Positions 1-5,493 of a stretch of 5,548 nt of DNA are shown piece after piece. The notes under the pieces were generated by a model. The model was not told the origin of the DNA and searched no databases. It saw only the letters and a program-made list of their open reading frames with translations. Position numbers and translations under genes: made by a program. The stretch comes from a virus (taxonomy: Duplodnaviria > Heunggongvirae > Uroviricota > Caudoviricetes). Location of the stretch: IMG/VR virus record IMGVR_UViG_2529292977_000015, one strand, 5' to 3'. Position 1 is the first letter of the stretch, and every line of letters starts with the position of its first letter.

Positions 1-176
1 GCTCAGGGCGATAAAACGCCAGGTGAATTTATTCAGGTTGTGCAAGTCCCGCCCTTGCGGGTGTGTGGTATGATTTCTCATAGCTACCTCGATACTGTTG
101 CTATCGTTGGTGGTCAGAGGCTGCGAAAGGACGGCAATCCTTTTCAGCCTCGTTTGCATTGAGTGATAAACACTCA

Positions 177-257
177 ACTGGATTCCAGTATAATCACTAA
201 GTGGAATCCACTTCAAGCGTTTTGTTTTGGTCTTTTTCGTGTATACTGGATTCCAGT
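177..257. promoter_or_regulatory. Operator array: three palindromes ACTGGA-T-TCCAGT (177-189), AGTGGA-A-TCCACT (200-212), ACTGGA-T-TCCAGT (245-257), overlapping -10-like hexamers
   Basis: Read directly: 6-1-6 inverted repeats sharing the core TGGAWTCCA, centres at 183, 206 and 251. TATAAT at 189-194 and TATACT at 242-247 on the plus strand. On the minus strand TTGAAG, an 18-nt spacer and TATACT (plus coordinates 192-187) form a divergent promoter candidate with the middle palindrome in its spacer. Confidence 0.45.
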
Positions 258-277
258 AATCACAAAGGGAACCAGAA

Positions 278-457
278 ATGGAAAGAGACCATATCAATAA
301 CAAATCACAGAAATTACAGGCTCGCGCCCCGCATGAAGTTGTTGAGGCTATGGAGCAAGTAAAAGAAACAGGCGAGAGCACTGCGCAATTTATCGTTACA
401 GCCATGCGAGGCGAGATCAAACGCCGCCAGCGCCGCAAGGCCAAAGAAGCGGAATAG
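278..457 (+). CDS. Small ribbon-helix-helix (CopG/Arc/Mnt-like) DNA-binding protein, 59 aa; absent from the supplied ORF track
   Basis: ATG 278 with AAGGGA 7 nt upstream, stop TAG 455-457. Translation MERDHINNKSQKLQARAPHEVVEAMEQVKETGESTAQFIVTAMRGEIKRRQRRKAKEAE shows a strand-helix-helix pattern and a basic tail. It lies directly downstream of the operator array and is followed by an intrinsic terminator. Confidence 0.5.
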   Translation: MERDHINNKSQKLQARAPHEVVEAMEQVKETGESTAQFIVTAMRGEIKRRQRRKAKEAE

Positions 458-545: not shown

Positions 546-577
546 GGCGACCTCTGATCCGGGTCGCCTTTGTTTTG
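546..577 (+). terminator. Rho-independent terminator for the plus-strand RHH transcript
   Basis: 7-bp stem GGCGACC (546-552) pairing GGTCGCC (562-568), 9-nt loop, then TTTGTTTTG. It abuts the stop codon of the convergent Bro-N gene at 578-580. Confidence 0.55.
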
Positions 578-1159
578 TCACTGAATGCGGTTGCCAAAGT
601 AAAACTCAGGCTGATATTCACGTATCAGCCTTTTTTCTTCTTCCTCCAGCTCACGCTTTTTGCGCTTACATGCCTGTAGCTCCCTCCCCTTCTGACTGGC
701 ACTTAACTGATATTGCTCTTTACGGCGAGAAAAGTCCTGTAATGCGCCCCACGGGATACCATAAGCCCCCGTTTTTCTGATTCCTGGTATCACATTCCTG
801 AATACCCAGTTACTGAAACGATGGGCGAACGTGCCAGGAGTAACAGCTTTCCGACTTCTGGCGATCAGCTTGTAAAAACCGGATTCAGAAATGAGGCTAT
901 GATTTGGATTTCCTCGAATACCGTAGCTTAAAGCGACGGTTTTCTTTTCATCCGCATCTAGTGCTTTTAGAGCATCGCGTGAGTTACTTATTTCCAGAGC
1001 AACACAAACATCCTTTGCAACAAACCACGGATCGCCGTTCAGATACACCACGCGAACGTTCACACTATCAAAGCGCAGAACGACCAGATCACGAAAATCA
1101 CAGAATTTTTTTACATGACGTGCGTCACCCTTGCCCGTCACGGCAATATTTTTATTCAT
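578..1159 (-). CDS. Bro-N domain protein (phage antirepressor-like), 193 aa
   Basis: N-terminal motif FRDLVVLRFDSVNVRVVYLNGDPWFVAKDVCVALEISNSRDALKALDADEKK matches the Bro-N signature. C-terminal tail is charged (KRKKRELEEEEKRLIRE). ATG 1159 with GAGGT upstream. Confidence 0.8.
   Translation of the reverse strand: MNKNIAVTGKGDARHVKKFCDFRDLVVLRFDSVNVRVVYLNGDPWFVAKDVCVALEISNSRDALKALDADEKKTVALSYGIRGNPNHSLISESGFYKLIARSRKAVTPGTFAHRFSNWVFRNVIPGIRKTGAYGIPWGALQDFSRRKEQYQLSASQKGRELQACKRKKRELEEEEKRLIREYQPEFYFGNRIQ
608..643 (+). terminator. Second canonical hairpin plus U-tract (terminator-like) lying inside the Bro-N coding 3' end
   Basis: Perfect 9-bp stem AGGCTGATA (608-616) pairing TATCAGCCT (623-631), 6-nt loop, followed by TTTTTCTTCTTCC. 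Confidence 0.45.
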
Positions 1160-1173
1160 TTCTTTTTTACCTC

Positions 1174-1205
1174 ACATACAAAAAACCCCGCATTGCACGC
1201 GGGGT
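1174..1205 (-). terminator. Rho-independent terminator downstream of the AlpA-like gene
   Basis: On the minus strand, stem CCCCGC/GCGGGG (plus 1186-1191 with 1199-1204), 7-nt loop, then TTTTTTGTATGTG. It sits 13 nt after the alpA stop. Confidence 0.6.
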
Positions 1206-2674: not shown

Positions 2675-2835
2675 CTATCGCCCTCATTTTTTAGTCCGTC
2701 ATGTAGTCCATTCAAGCCAATAACAAGCGATAAACTAACTCATTATCAAGCAAAGAGAGGAAACTCATAAAATCACAACTCATTGAAAAGACTATGAAAC
2801 GACACCAGAACATACAAACAGGTAAGAAATGTACC

Positions 2836-3843
2836 CTACATCCAAAATGACGCAATCCGGGAGTTTCGTGGCGTTCCGGTGATACTGCCGTCCGCCGCCG
2901 CCCGTTCACCTTCACGAAGCCAGATCCCCTGGTTATTCAGTTCGCGTTTCTGCTCAGGGGCAATCAGCCCGCGACAATGCGGACACATCAGACGGGCAGC
3001 CTGACCGGCAGCCACAAAATCCGGGTTATTCCGGTATCCGGTCATGTTATCCATCACCGGCTGAAAATATTCCCCGCAGTGCGGACACGGCCAGTACCAC
3101 CGGCGGCGGTCTCCCCGGTTATACAGTGACAGGATCCCCGTTGTTGGCGGTGCCTCATGTGCGCCACCACAACGCCATTTGGTATCGGTGATATCCCGCC
3201 CCGGTGAACTCTCGACCAGGGTCATCCCCGAGGACATAAAGGTGGTGGTACGCTTTGAGGCCAGCGTGAAGGCATCCCCTTCCCCGTCCACATTTTCAGG
3301 GAAACGGTCATAATCCGTCAGCGCCACACGACGGTAATCCGAAGAGGAAAAGACGGTGATCGACGGCCAGCCAATCTTCAGGAAGGAGCCGTCAAGAAAC
3401 ATTTTATCGTGGACGTTGTTGTCATTACGGGAAGGACTGAGGCGCTTGCTGACCTCCGGACTGTGGCGAAACGTCCTGGAAAGACGCGTTCTGGAATGCT
3501 CACGCGCCTTCGTCTCAGTCATCTGCACCACCAGCATATCCGCCGGATCACAGATGATGCCGTACACAATCCAGCCATCAATCAGCCCTTCGGTTTTCCC
3601 GGTTCGCGCAGGTCCCACAAACACCACCGCGTCATATTCACGGGCTGATAATGTATTAATGGGGTCAATCATATAGGGCGTCAGCGATGACTCCCACGGA
3701 CCGGAAGTATTGGCTCCCCGTGGAACCCGCATATAACGCCTGATGGCTTCCGCTACTGGTAACCGGCTGGGTGGGCGAAACAGCGAGGCCACTTCGCGCC
3801 AGATATCGGATGCGCGGCTATGGCTCTCGTTCACCTGATTCAC
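2836..3843 (-). CDS. Terminase large subunit (lambda GpA family), N-terminal fragment of ~335 aa, truncated and probably a pseudogene
   Basis: Walker A VFVGPARTGKTEG and Cys motifs WPCPHCGEYFQ and MCPHCRG align with lambda gpA. Full-length gpA is about 640 aa. Similarity runs to ...RIASFW, then M and TAG at 2836-2838. GTG start at 3843 overlaps the Nu1 stop. Confidence 0.85.
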   Translation of the reverse strand: MNQVNESHSRASDIWREVASLFRPPSRLPVAEAIRRYMRVPRGANTSGPWESSLTPYMIDPINTLSAREYDAVVFVGPARTGKTEGLIDGWIVYGIICDPADMLVVQMTETKAREHSRTRLSRTFRHSPEVSKRLSPSRNDNNVHDKMFLDGSFLKIGWPSITVFSSSDYRRVALTDYDRFPENVDGEGDAFTLASKRTTTFMSSGMTLVESSPGRDITDTKWRCGGAHEAPPTTGILSLYNRGDRRRWYWPCPHCGEYFQPVMDNMTGYRNNPDFVAAGQAARLMCPHCRGLIAPEQKRELNNQGIWLREGERAAADGSITGTPRNSRIASFWM

Positions 3844-4316
3844 ATATCGGCCTCATCACAACAGTCAATGACTGCCTTTTCCAGTGTGTCGCGGATCTCA
3901 TCAACCACAATCTGTACTTCATTCAGTTGTGATGCAGTCCACCCCCTGTCCCTCTCCAGCCGGTCAGGCCAGGTTTCCAGTACCTGAACTATCGCTTTCA
4001 CCACGACAGAAAAGGACCGCCTGACATCACTGACTGGCACAAGCTGAACAGTTTCATGCTGAAATTTAAGACGCTCGCGCTCGGACTGATACCATGCCTT
4101 ACGAGCGTGAGGATCCATATCCTCATCTTCGGAAGATGGTGGTTTTTCCAGCAACGAAGTTATCAAATCCGTCAGGAGATACAGTTTTTTCTTTTCATTA
4201 CTGCCTGGTGCAAGAGGAACATCCGCCATTCTGGCGGCAACAGTCTGCCGGTGCAGACCTGAAAGGGCTGCCAGTTGATTAATATTTAACTTCATATTTT
4301 TCAGCTCGCCGTCCAT
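3840..4316 (-). CDS. Terminase small subunit, Nu1-like with N-terminal HTH, 158 aa
   Basis: N-terminus MKLNINQLAALSGLHRQTV parallels lambda Nu1 (MEVNKKQLADIFGASIRTIQ). GGAGG SD 7 nt before ATG 4316. Stop overlaps the terL start, in the lambda Nu1-A order. Confidence 0.85.
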   Translation of the reverse strand: MDGELKNMKLNINQLAALSGLHRQTVAARMADVPLAPGSNEKKKLYLLTDLITSLLEKPPSSEDEDMDPHARKAWYQSERERLKFQHETVQLVPVSDVRRSFSVVVKAIVQVLETWPDRLERDRGWTASQLNEVQIVVDEIRDTLEKAVIDCCDEADM

Positions 4317-5025: not shown

Positions 5026-5493
5026 CTAGTTAATACACTGAGTGCGGATATATTCCTGAAGCATTCTCAATGCTGCCTGGTCGCTGATGATTCCGTCTCT
5101 GATACCGAGAACGTTTCGTCCAGCAACCGGAGAGAGTTCGACGGCGGCATCATTGCCCACGCCGGAGGTGCCGGTGGCTTCACGCACGGTACCGGGGCAG
5201 GTGGCGTTGATCCGCAGGCGCTTACGACCAGCGGCAACATCAGCACGCAGAGTTTCATTTTCAGCTCTCGCATCGGCTAATTCCCTCGAGTATTTTGCAT
5301 CGAGCGCAGCAACATCACGCTGGCGCACCTGCATGTCAGTAATGGTGGCATTCGCCTGTTCCAGCTCTCTGGCTTTTTTATCGCGCTGCGCTTTGTAGGT
5401 GAGCGCGTTGTCACGGTAATGGTTTGTTGCCAGCCACAGCGCACCACAGCCAACCGCCATGACAATAATCACCACACACAGAACACGGTTCAT
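5026..5493 (-). CDS. Rz: Rz i-spanin (inner-membrane spanin subunit), 155 aa
   Basis: Near-colinear with lambda Rz: ...[70 protein letters not shown]... N-terminal hydrophobic segment present. Confidence 0.9.
5067..5273 (-). CDS. Rz1: Rz1 o-spanin (outer-membrane lipoprotein), embedded in the +1 frame within Rz
   Basis: [22 protein letters not shown]... has a lipobox ending in Cys and the proline-rich [15 protein letters not shown], matching lambda Rz1 (MLKLKMMLCVMMLPLVVVGC...CVKPPPPPAW). Lies wholly inside Rz. Confidence 0.85.

What the first reader, a model, noticed from the sequence alone, without database searches (positions are those of the whole stretch)
170..262. Three near-identical palindromic operators interleaved with divergent promoter elements
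ACTGGA-T-TCCAGT occurs twice (177-189, 245-257) and AGTGGA-A-TCCACT once (200-212). All are 6-1-6 inverted repeats with core TGGAWTCCA, with centre spacings of 23 and 45 bp. A perfect TATAAT (189-194) and a TATACT (242-247) overlap the outer sites on the plus strand. A minus-strand TTGAAG-18 nt-TATACT promoter candidate has the middle site in its spacer. This looks like a compact bistable-switch control region reminiscent of P22 immI (Arc/Mnt controlling Ant), with a Bro-N antirepressor-like gene nearby.
Basis: seen in the sequence. Interest (0 to 1): 0.6.

Follow-up and report, generated by a model that had tools for sequence, protein, structure and literature searches.

The report
Repressor operators of a phage satellite
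The three palindromes are real and are most likely the binding sites of a small, previously uncharacterised ribbon-helix-helix repressor that keeps the replication operon of an E. coli phage satellite (a PICI sitting inside its helper prophage) switched off, which could be the "missing" repressor of Gram-negative PICIs.

Summary
ACTGGATTCCAGT lies at 177-189 and 245-257, and AGTGGAATCCACT at 200-212. These are the only copies in 29.5 kb of surrounding genome.

The window is a 10.4-kb helper-embedded PICI inserted in the terminase gene of a lambdoid prophage. The sites lie between a 59-aa YlcI/YnfO-family gene (278-457, +) and a divergent Icd-like/primase operon.

More than 200 related loci were examined, including the prototype EcCICFT073. 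They keep three sites at fixed distances from the ATG: -32, -77 and about -100 or -112. The outer TG/CA bases are invariant, but the central five bases differ between elements. That core tracks the outward-facing beta-strand residues 12 and 14 of the small protein. It does not track the Icd-like or AlpA-like proteins.

The protein's predicted fold best matches ribbon-helix-helix (RHH) proteins.

O1 and O2 bracket a conserved leftward promoter (TTGAAG-18-TATACT). O3 covers the conserved -10 of the repressor's own promoter.

The P22 immI analogy is only partly right. There is one RHH, the Bro-N gene is not the target, and bistability is untested. The layout is closer to lambda OR.

I found no published description. 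A conserved plus-strand antisense RNA opposite the Icd-like ribosome-binding site was noticed alongside.

The parts
177..189 (.). O1: ACTGGATTCCAGT. It overlaps the -10 (187-192) and the expected start (~180) of the leftward promoter.
   Evidence: The equivalent site lies 99-102 or 111-113 nt upstream of the ATG in all relatives.
200..212 (.). O2: AGTGGAATCCACT. It lies in the spacer of the leftward promoter and abuts its -35.
   Evidence: The equivalent 11-mer starts at -77 from the ATG in 49 of 58 first-set loci, and the same register fits most of the second set.
245..257 (.). O3: ACTGGATTCCAGT. It overlaps the last bases of the rightward -10 and the expected start (~254) of the RHH gene's own promoter.
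   Evidence: The equivalent 11-mer starts at -32 from the ATG in relatives. Its left half is always CTG because it is shared with TATACT.
187..216 (-). Leftward promoter P_L: -35 TTGAAG (216-211), 18-nt spacer, -10 TATACT (192-187). It would drive the Icd-like/DUF4222/primase/SSB operon.
   Evidence: Scan hit. TCAA (the complement of TTGA in the -35) is invariant in 42 unique relatives. The minus-strand -10 keeps A2 and T6 in relatives, whereas the plus-strand reading does not.
242..247 (+). -10 hexamer TATACT of the rightward promoter P_R of the RHH gene. No good -35 is present; a T-rich tract lies upstream.
   Evidence: TATA at -36..-33 and TG at -31/-30 are invariant in relatives.
278..457 (+). 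59-aa YlcI/YnfO-family protein, predicted RHH and the proposed repressor. Beta strand is about residues 9-17 (KSQKLQARA), helix A 19-28, helix B 35-58. The basic tail GEIKRRQR is invariant.
546..631 (+). Two plus-strand terminator-like hairpins (546-568 and 608-631) that would end the RHH transcript before or inside the 3' end of the convergent Bro-N gene.
1..81 (-). 5' part of the Icd-like gene, the first gene of the regulated operon. The start codon is at 81-79 and the SD GAGG is the complement of 87-90. The gene runs off the window.
   Evidence: Annotation. NCBIfam phage_ICD_like 69.5 bits.
66..160 (+). Candidate cis-antisense small RNA. It has an extended -10 TGgTATGAT (66-74), a start near 80, hairpin I (83-114), hairpin II (117-151) and a tail GTTTGCATT. 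It is complementary to the SD and AUG of the Icd-like gene.
   Evidence: In 31 relatives, 16 of 23 pairs show compensatory changes. There are 103 G-U against 3 A-C cells when read on the + strand. The fold is -32.1 kcal/mol, z -4.06, on + against -24.9, z -2.57, on -. There is no Rfam match.

Best explanation
The three 13-bp palindromes are the operators of the adjacent 59-aa YlcI/YnfO-family protein. This protein is most likely a ribbon-helix-helix (RHH) repressor and acts as the immunity or maintenance repressor of a Gram-negative phage-inducible chromosomal island (PICI). Here the island is a helper-embedded PICI lying inside the terminase gene of a lambdoid prophage.

Proposed mechanism:
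- RHH dimers insert their two-stranded beta ribbon into the major groove at each (G/C)TG-N5-CA(C/G) site. Residues 12 and 14 read the central five base pairs. The invariant R16, K9, S10 and the basic tail contact the invariant outer TG/CA and the backbone.
- Occupancy of O1 (over the -10 and start site) and O2 (in the spacer, abutting the -35) blocks RNA polymerase at the leftward promoter. This silences the Icd-like/DUF4222/primase/SSB/capsid operon while the island is quiescent.
- Occupancy of O3 (over the -10 and start site of the repressor's own promoter) gives negative autoregulation.

Shown here:
- The sites, their fixed geometry and the conserved promoter hexamers.
- Co-variation of the operator core with the beta-strand residues.
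- A predicted fold that best matches RHH proteins.

Inferred:
- Actual binding, the sign of regulation and the stoichiometry.
- How repression is lifted. Because the island is co-oriented with the interrupted helper late gene, terminator-resistant helper late transcription could read through int, alpA and bro, run antisense across the RHH gene and enter the operon. A helper-encoded anti-repressor is the alternative.
For: 1. Context. The window matches E. coli O157, O145, O121 and other chromosomes at 100%. The gene order is int, AlpA-like HTH, Bro-N, YlcI (opposite strand), Icd-like, DUF4222, primase, SSB, protease-capsid fusion. The island sits inside a split terminase gene. This is the HE-PICI organisation of PMC10111431. 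The prototype EcCICFT073 carries the same YlcI/Icd-like pair with three GTGTGGCCCAC-type sites.

2. Fixed geometry. In 58 loci from E. coli and 50 other Enterobacterales species, the sites start 32, 77 and 99-102 or 111-113 nt before the ATG. The same holds in 153 independent metagenome and IMG/VR loci.

3. Co-variation.
- In pairs of elements with the same beta-strand signature, the N5 columns are 94.7% identical and other intergenic columns 70.5%.
- In pairs with a different signature, N5 is 29.7% identical (random level) and other columns 57.1%.
- The outer TG/CA bases are about 95% identical in both groups.
- All three sites of an element change together.

4. Which residues matter. Residues 14 and 12 have the highest mutual information with operator class (0.79 and 0.75 of the class entropy). 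R16 is invariant. Residues 13, 15 and 17 are small or hydrophobic, so they plausibly face the protein core (my reading of the alignment). This i, i+2, i+4 pattern is what an RHH ribbon predicts. On independent loci, 33 of 45 unique combinations have the predicted core within 1 mismatch.

5. Other proteins excluded as the specificity partner.
- L012 has an Icd-like N-terminus identical to L022, L025 and L028 but a different beta strand and different operators.
- L004 and L005 share operators and YlcI, but their AlpA-like proteins are only 32% identical.
- The window and L004 share the same primase, DUF4222 and hypothetical proteins but differ in operators.

7. Promoters. The TTGA of the leftward -35 and the TATA of the rightward -10 are invariant. 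The sites sit in repression positions: spacer, -10 and +1.

8. The motif occurs nowhere else in 29.5 kb.
Against: - There are no binding or expression data.
- Foldseek, the PDB sequence search and Pfam give nothing significant.
- The gene and its operators are only 30-100 bp apart and are inherited together, so part of the association is linkage.
- Residues 12 and 14 are not the whole code. The K/S signature maps to two different cores.
- P_R has no recognisable -35.
- The published model for Gram-negative PICIs stresses activation by AlpA and describes unidirectional transcription (PMC6092414). A repressor layer may therefore be secondary.
- A strong minus-strand terminator follows the alpA-like gene (1205-1185). 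Ordinary read-through from alpA is therefore unlikely.
Confidence: 0.7

Rival explanations
1. The RHH and its operators form a local safety module only. It would act as an antitoxin-like transcriptional lid, together with the antisense RNA, on the potentially toxic Icd-like cell-division inhibitor. It would not be the master switch of the island. Island induction would be governed by AlpA and helper late transcription.
For: - The first gene after P_L is Icd-like.
- A conserved plus-strand RNA is complementary to its SD and AUG.
- AlpA overexpression alone induces EcCICFT073 (PMC6092414).
Against: - No terminator or separate promoter was seen between the Icd-like gene and the following genes. 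Their ORFs overlap by a few bases up to the primase. Repressing P_L would therefore silence the replication genes as well.
- The many exchangeable specificities look like immunity types of a mobile element rather than a toxin-antitoxin pair.
- There is no evidence that the RHH binds Icd-like protein.
Confidence: 0.17
2. The palindromes are bound by another factor, such as the AlpA-like HTH, the Bro-N protein, the Icd-like protein or a helper or host protein. The small ORF would be a bystander.
For: - Bro-N and AlpA-family proteins are DNA-binding.
- PHROG labels the Icd-like family 'transcriptional repressor'.
- No direct binding data exist.
Against: - The operator core changes with the small protein's beta strand. 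It does not change with Icd-like, AlpA-like or the downstream operon proteins.
- Many relatives lack a Bro-N gene altogether.
- A host or helper factor could not follow ten or more different cores.
Confidence: 0.06
3. This is a P22 immI-type bistable switch. Paired RHH repressors at overlapping divergent promoters would control an antirepressor, the Bro-N gene.
For: - There are divergent promoters with overlapping operators, an RHH gene and a nearby Bro-N gene with PHROG anti-repressor hits.
- A possible sar-like antisense RNA is present.
Against: - Only one RHH gene lies in the region.
- Bro-N is convergent, lies behind two terminators and lacks the motif.
- Relatives keep the operator module without any Bro-N gene.
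- The regulated operon is Icd-like/primase.
Confidence: 0.04
4. The palindromes are chance occurrences, or RNA or DNA structural elements with no protein partner.
For: Short palindromes are common. The window has three other perfect 6-1-6 palindromes.
Against: - Clustering occurred in 2 of 3000 simulations.
- The positions are identical in more than 200 loci, and all three sites change in concert.
- A 6-bp stem with a 1-nt loop cannot fold as RNA.
Confidence: 0.01

Closest known systems
Phage lambda OR (CI/Cro, PR/PRM)
   Same: Three related operators lie between two divergent promoters. Two of them cover the promoter of the replication or 'lytic' operon. The third covers the repressor's own promoter and so gives autoregulation. 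Exchangeable immunity specificities exist among relatives.
   Different: The repressor here is a 59-aa RHH, not a two-domain HTH protein. No Cro-like second regulator was identified. O2-O3 spacing is 45 bp rather than about 23 bp. There is no sign of LexA/RecA-type cleavage. The element is a satellite, not a phage.
Phage P22 immI (Arc, Mnt, Ant, sar RNA)
   Same: Small RHH repressors whose beta-ribbon residues (i, i+2, i+4) read the operator. Operators overlap divergent promoters. An antisense RNA may cover the ribosome-binding site of the first regulated gene.
   Different: There is one RHH instead of two. The regulated operon encodes Icd-like and replication functions, not the antirepressor. 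The Bro-N gene lies outside the unit.
CopG (pMV158) and omega (pSM19035) plasmid RHH repressors
   Same: They are very small autoregulated RHH repressors. They bind a 13-bp pseudosymmetric element (CopG) or 7-bp repeats in either orientation (omega) that overlap promoter elements. This comparison rests on my own knowledge of those systems.
   Different: There is no detectable sequence similarity. Here there are three separated sites with strictly fixed spacing. The setting is a phage satellite rather than plasmid copy-number control.
Stl/Rpr master repressors of Gram-positive PICIs (SaPIs)
   Same: The proposed role is the same: a divergently transcribed repressor that keeps the island's replication and packaging operon silent until a helper phage is active (PMC6092414).
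   Different: Stl proteins are large HTH repressors relieved by binding specific helper proteins. For Gram-negative PICIs the literature says a global repressor is 'unclear' and describes AlpA activation. No relief mechanism is shown here.
Phage P1 immI (c4 RNA, icd, ant)
   Same: An Icd-family gene is the first gene of a tightly controlled operon, with an RNA layer acting at its translation-initiation region.
   Different: P1 c4 acts in trans from the same transcript. The Rfam C4 and isrK models do not match here. P1 has no RHH or tripartite operator at this position, to my knowledge.

Membership tests
YlcI/YnfO family (NCBIfam NF041551; DUF3950) | Score above the curated cutoff of the family HMM | tested here: met
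   72.3 bits against a cutoff of 30, residues 9-50. RefSeq annotates it as such. K-12 YlcI itself is only distantly similar (BLASTP E 1.3). It lies next to nohD and cos, without the triple GTG-N5-CAC sites.
Ribbon-helix-helix (MetJ/Arc/CopG) DNA-binding superfamily | Beta-alpha-alpha fold | tested here: met
Ribbon-helix-helix (MetJ/Arc/CopG) DNA-binding superfamily | Significant sequence or profile match to a curated RHH family | tested here: inconclusive
   Only sub-threshold Pfam hits: PSK_trans_fac (8 of 38 members, best E 0.0096), CB_ParB_C and HicB. Nothing was found in the PDB by sequence or by Foldseek.
Ribbon-helix-helix (MetJ/Arc/CopG) DNA-binding superfamily | Base-specific contacts by alternate residues of the N-terminal strand | tested here: met
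   This test is indirect. Residues 12 and 14 carry the most information about the operator core and R16 is invariant. Residues 13, 15 and 17 are small or hydrophobic.
Ribbon-helix-helix (MetJ/Arc/CopG) DNA-binding superfamily | Dimer or higher oligomer binding to the operator | not testable with these tools
   This needs EMSA, footprinting or a multimer-DNA model.
P22 immI-type switch | Two RHH repressors (Arc and Mnt) flanking the control region | tested here: not met
   Only one small RHH-like ORF lies in or beside 1-700.
P22 immI-type switch | Antirepressor gene transcribed from the regulated promoter | tested here: not met
   Bro-N (578-1159, -) converges on the RHH gene behind two terminators and has no motif copy. 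P_L leads into the Icd-like and primase genes.
P22 immI-type switch | Operators overlapping divergent promoters | tested here: met
Gram-negative PICI, helper-embedded subtype (HE-PICI) | Int plus AlpA zone, Bro zone, primase/SSB replication zone and late zone, about 10 kb, co-oriented inside a prophage late gene | tested here: met
   Gene order and the split gpA terminase gene are shown. The definition comes from PMC10111431. Excision and helper dependence were not tested.
Lambda OR-type tripartite operator | Three operators shared by a repressor-maintenance promoter and a divergent early promoter | tested here: met
   Geometry is shown. The resemblance is functional only, because the proteins are unrelated (RHH against HTH).

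The most novel reading that the evidence does not exclude
The YlcI/YnfO-type RHH is the long-missing master or immunity repressor of Gram-negative PICIs, including the prototype EcCICFT073. It would hold the replication and packaging operon off through a lambda-OR-like tripartite operator. It exists in at least a dozen interchangeable specificities set largely by two beta-strand residues. It is backed by a conserved cis-antisense RNA against the Icd-like gene. Together these would define satellite 'immunity groups' and a tractable natural RHH recognition code.
Probability: 0.45. Interest if true: 0.75.

Novelty: new member of a known kind. Interest (0 to 1): 0.6.

Why it matters
[quoted passage not shown] It also describes them as transcribed in one direction (PMC6092414). 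The small opposite-strand gene and its three operators are present in that paper's own model island. They supply a concrete, testable candidate for the missing repression layer.

The family name YlcI/YnfO (DUF3950) currently carries no function. The natural series of matched repressor and operator variants differs mainly at two ribbon residues and five base pairs. It is a ready-made data set for RHH-DNA recognition and for orthogonal repressor parts.

It also bears on how satellites embedded in their helper's late genes are switched on.

Tried and rejected
- Rfam scan of the whole window at E up to 1: no hit. The region is therefore not a C4, isrK or P4 CI-type immunity RNA.
- Megablast and tblastn against 50,697 phage records: no match. 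The module is not found in deposited phage genomes at these thresholds.
- PDB sequence searches with the protein and with a 38-member profile: only noise.
- Pfam at default thresholds: nothing.
- Literature searches for YlcI, YnfO, DUF3950, PICI with ribbon-helix-helix, Icd-like, operator, and EcCICFT073 with master repressor: no functional description.
- RgdR, said to be encoded by all E. coli PICIs, is a different, 99-aa protein.
- Icd-like and AlpA-like proteins as the operator-binding partner: rejected on counter-examples.
- The plus-strand TAAACA-16-TATAAT promoter (167-194) scores 10 of 12 in the window. It is not conserved in relatives, so I do not count it as part of the design.
- Simple read-through from alpA as the induction route: weakened by a strong terminator at 1205-1185. 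Only antiterminated helper late transcription would pass it.
- The fixed-register 'two-residue code': it fails for the K/S signature and for sites shifted by 1 nt. It is a strong tendency, not a rule.

Full report
**1. What is in the window**

The 5548-nt window is 100% identical to chromosomes of E. coli O157:H7, O145:H28, O121:H19 and others. The annotated context and domain scans show a lambdoid prophage late region on the minus strand:
- Rz at 5026-5493.
- A DUF1441 small-terminase-like gene at 3840-4316.
- The N-terminal 335 codons of a gpA-type large terminase at 2836-3843.

The terminase gene is interrupted by a 10.4-kb island. Reading on the minus strand, the island encodes:
- a tyrosine integrase (1436-2674);
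- an AlpA-like HTH protein (1219-1443);
- a Bro-N protein (578-1159);
- an Icd-like protein starting at 81, followed by small ORFs, DUF4222, a primase, SSB and a protease-capsid fusion.

One gene, at 278-457, lies on the opposite strand. The C-terminal part of the terminase gene follows the island.

This is the 'helper-embedded PICI' configuration described by PMC10111431. The finding lies in the 196-bp gap between the Icd-like start and the opposite-strand gene.

**2.

The three 6-1-6 palindromes, their spacing (23 and 45 bp) and the promoter-like hexamers are at the stated coordinates. The 11-nt motif, allowing one mismatch, occurs only at these three places in 29.5 kb. A cluster of three perfect 6-1-6 palindromes appeared in 2 of 3000 simulated windows.

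**3. The architecture is conserved**

I collected three sets of related loci:
- diverged copies from E. coli genomes;
- 54 loci from other Enterobacterales species;
- 160 further loci from metagenomes and IMG/VR.

In essentially all of them the small gene is preceded by three related 11-13-bp sites. These start 32, 77 and either 99-102 or 111-113 nt before the ATG.

The prototype Gram-negative PICI, EcCICFT073, has the same pair of genes and three GTGTGGCCCAC-type sites.

The general form of a site is (G/C)TG-N5-CA(C/G). The outer TG and CA are about 95% conserved whichever elements are compared. The five central bases differ sharply between elements.

**4. The sites follow the small protein**

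The small protein belongs to the YlcI/YnfO family, which has no described function.

Its alignment shows an invariant frame, N7, K9, S10, R16 and E33 to F38 to E46-R50, around variable positions 12-15 and 17.

Elements were grouped by residues 11, 12 and 14, and the intergenic columns compared in pairs:

| Pair type | N5 columns identical | Other intergenic columns identical |
|---|---|---|
| Same signature | 94.7% | 70.5% |
| Different signature | 29.7% (random level) | 57.1% |

The core therefore flips from the best conserved to the least conserved part of the region according to the protein.

Residues 14 and 12 carry the most information about operator class. Together they assign the class without conflict in the first set. 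R16 is invariant, and residues 13, 15 and 17 are small or hydrophobic. This is the alternation expected for the DNA-facing and core-facing sides of an RHH strand.

On the independent loci, 33 of 45 unique combinations had the predicted core within one mismatch. The failures were:
- 1-nt register shifts;
- degenerate O2 sites;
- one signature, K/S, that splits into two cores with different residues at 13, 15 and 17.

Positions 12 and 14 are therefore major determinants but not the only ones.

Linkage alone does not explain the pattern:
- All three sites of an element change together.
- E. coli elements with nearly identical flanks carry different cores.
- Pectobacterium, Dickeya, Morganella and E. 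coli elements with diverged flanks share a core when they share the strand.

The window's own type, K12/Q14 with an ERDH N-terminus, keeps CTGGATTCCAG/C at all three positions in Serratia and Klebsiella.

**5. Other candidate binding proteins are excluded**

- L012 has an Icd-like N-terminus identical to L022, L025 and L028 but a different strand and different operators.
- The window and L004 have 90% identical Icd-like proteins and identical downstream proteins but different operators.
- L004 and L005 share operators, but their AlpA-like proteins are 32% identical.
- Many relatives have no Bro-N gene.

**6. Fold**

AlphaFold2 with a 38-sequence alignment gives pLDDT 81.8. The model has two helices (19-28 and 35-58) after an N-terminal segment.

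Foldseek, PDB sequence searches and Pfam give nothing significant. The fold call is therefore probable rather than proven.

**7. Promoters and mechanism**

The leftward promoter:
- The complement of TTGA in the -35 is invariant in 42 unique relatives.
- Its last base is the last base of O2, so O2 fills the spacer.
- The minus-strand -10 (TATACT or TATAGT) is kept in relatives. The plus-strand reading of the same bases is not.
- O1 covers the -10 and start site in the 22-25-bp class. It lies just downstream in the 34-36-bp class.

The rightward promoter:
- The -10 TATACT is invariant and shares its last bases with O3.
- This explains why O3 always begins CTG.
- No good -35 is present.

These are repression positions. 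The most economical reading is that the RHH silences the Icd-like/primase operon through O1 and O2 and limits its own synthesis through O3. Binding, the sign of regulation and stoichiometry are inferred.

Two plus-strand terminators (546-568 and 608-631) end the repressor transcript.

**8. Relief of repression is speculative**

The HE-PICI paper stresses that these islands are co-oriented with the interrupted late gene and receive helper late transcription. Such terminator-resistant transcription would pass the strong terminator after alpA (1205-1185). It would then run antisense through the repressor gene and across the operators, and enter the operon.

A helper-encoded anti-repressor is equally possible. 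Published work shows that AlpA activates EcCICFT073 and that its expression depends on the helper. How that connects to this module is unknown.

**9. Comparison with known systems**

It fails on two defining features. There is one RHH rather than two, and the Bro-N 'antirepressor' is not in the regulated unit.

The logic is closer to lambda OR. It is also functionally closer to the Stl/Rpr repressors of Gram-positive PICIs.

The founding paper on Gram-negative PICIs says a global repressor is 'unclear' and describes these elements as unidirectionally transcribed. I found no paper describing this gene or these operators. That literature search covers open-access papers and preprints only.

**10. 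Also seen**

Between the Icd-like start and O1 lies a conserved double hairpin. In 31 relatives, 16 of its 23 pairs show compensatory changes. There are 103 G-U cells against 3 A-C cells when read on the plus strand. The plus-strand fold is also the more stable one.

An extended -10 (TGgTATGAT, 66-74) lies inside the first Icd-like codons. Together these suggest an antisense RNA of about 80 nt that covers the Icd-like SD and AUG. It is not in Rfam.

Some PICIs replace the YlcI-type gene with an unrelated Arc-like small protein and GGTGTACACC sites at the same place. This supports the view that the position holds an exchangeable immunity module.

**11. Verdict**

This is a real, conserved control region, most probably an RHH repressor with a tripartite operator. 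In mechanism it is a new member of a well-known kind. It is of more than routine interest because it fills a stated gap in PICI biology and offers a natural specificity series.

Noticed in passing
window 66-160 (+ strand): A conserved double hairpin (83-114 and 117-151) with a U-containing tail and an upstream extended -10 (TGgTATGAT, 66-74). Compensatory changes and a 103:3 excess of G-U over A-C pairs place the structure in a plus-strand RNA. That RNA is antisense to the SD and AUG of the Icd-like gene, so it is a candidate cis-antisense sRNA of about 80 nt. It has no Rfam match.
   Followed up: partly
window 2675-3843, and L001 5291-6421 / 16839-17843: The island splits a gpA-type large terminase gene of a lambdoid prophage. 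The N-terminal 335 codons are in the window and the C-terminal part lies 10.4 kb away. This is the known helper-embedded PICI configuration (PMC10111431). The att sites were not mapped.
   Followed up: partly
L063 2600-2860: Another E. coli PICI has the same Icd-like gene and hairpin but replaces the YlcI-type gene. In its place is an unrelated 64-aa Arc-like protein (MSTVIKRDKKQKGTGKAPPFHMRIVPELKEQF...) with two GGTGTACACC palindromes next to a GTCAA (-35) element. This suggests modular exchange of the repressor and operator cassette.
   Followed up: partly
window 177-201 versus 245-267: O1 and O3 are identical over 14 nt, and their right flanks also match (TAATCACTAAG against TAATCACAAAG) with a 2-nt offset. 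The Klebsiella relative (L066) lacks the flank match at O1. This suggests a recent copy or conversion of O3 onto O1 in this lineage.
   Followed up: no
window 412-445 (protein residues 45-56): The basic C-terminal segment GEIKRRQR(R/K)K is invariant across all specificity classes and genera. This is far more conserved than the rest of helix B. It may contact the invariant outer TG/CA bases or the backbone, or a conserved partner.
   Followed up: no
window 1185-1205 (- strand); 546-568 and 608-631 (+ strand): A strong terminator-like hairpin lies directly after the alpA-like gene and before Bro-N. Two plus-strand terminators lie after the RHH gene, the second inside the 3' end of the convergent Bro-N coding sequence.
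   Followed up: no
L062 8252-8840 (E. coli K-12 DLP12): The family's namesake, YlcI, is also a small protein with an RHH-like pattern (…TRNIRFPNQMIEQINIALEQKG…). It lies divergent from nohD next to the cos region. No triple GTG-N5-CAC sites are evident, so the lambdoid branch may have a different target.
   Followed up: no
window 3862, 4125, 4457: Three further perfect 6-1-6 palindromes (CAGTCAATGACTG, ATCTTCGGAAGAT, CATCATGATGATG) lie in the helper's terminase and cos-proximal region. They are unrelated in sequence to the operators.
   Followed up: no
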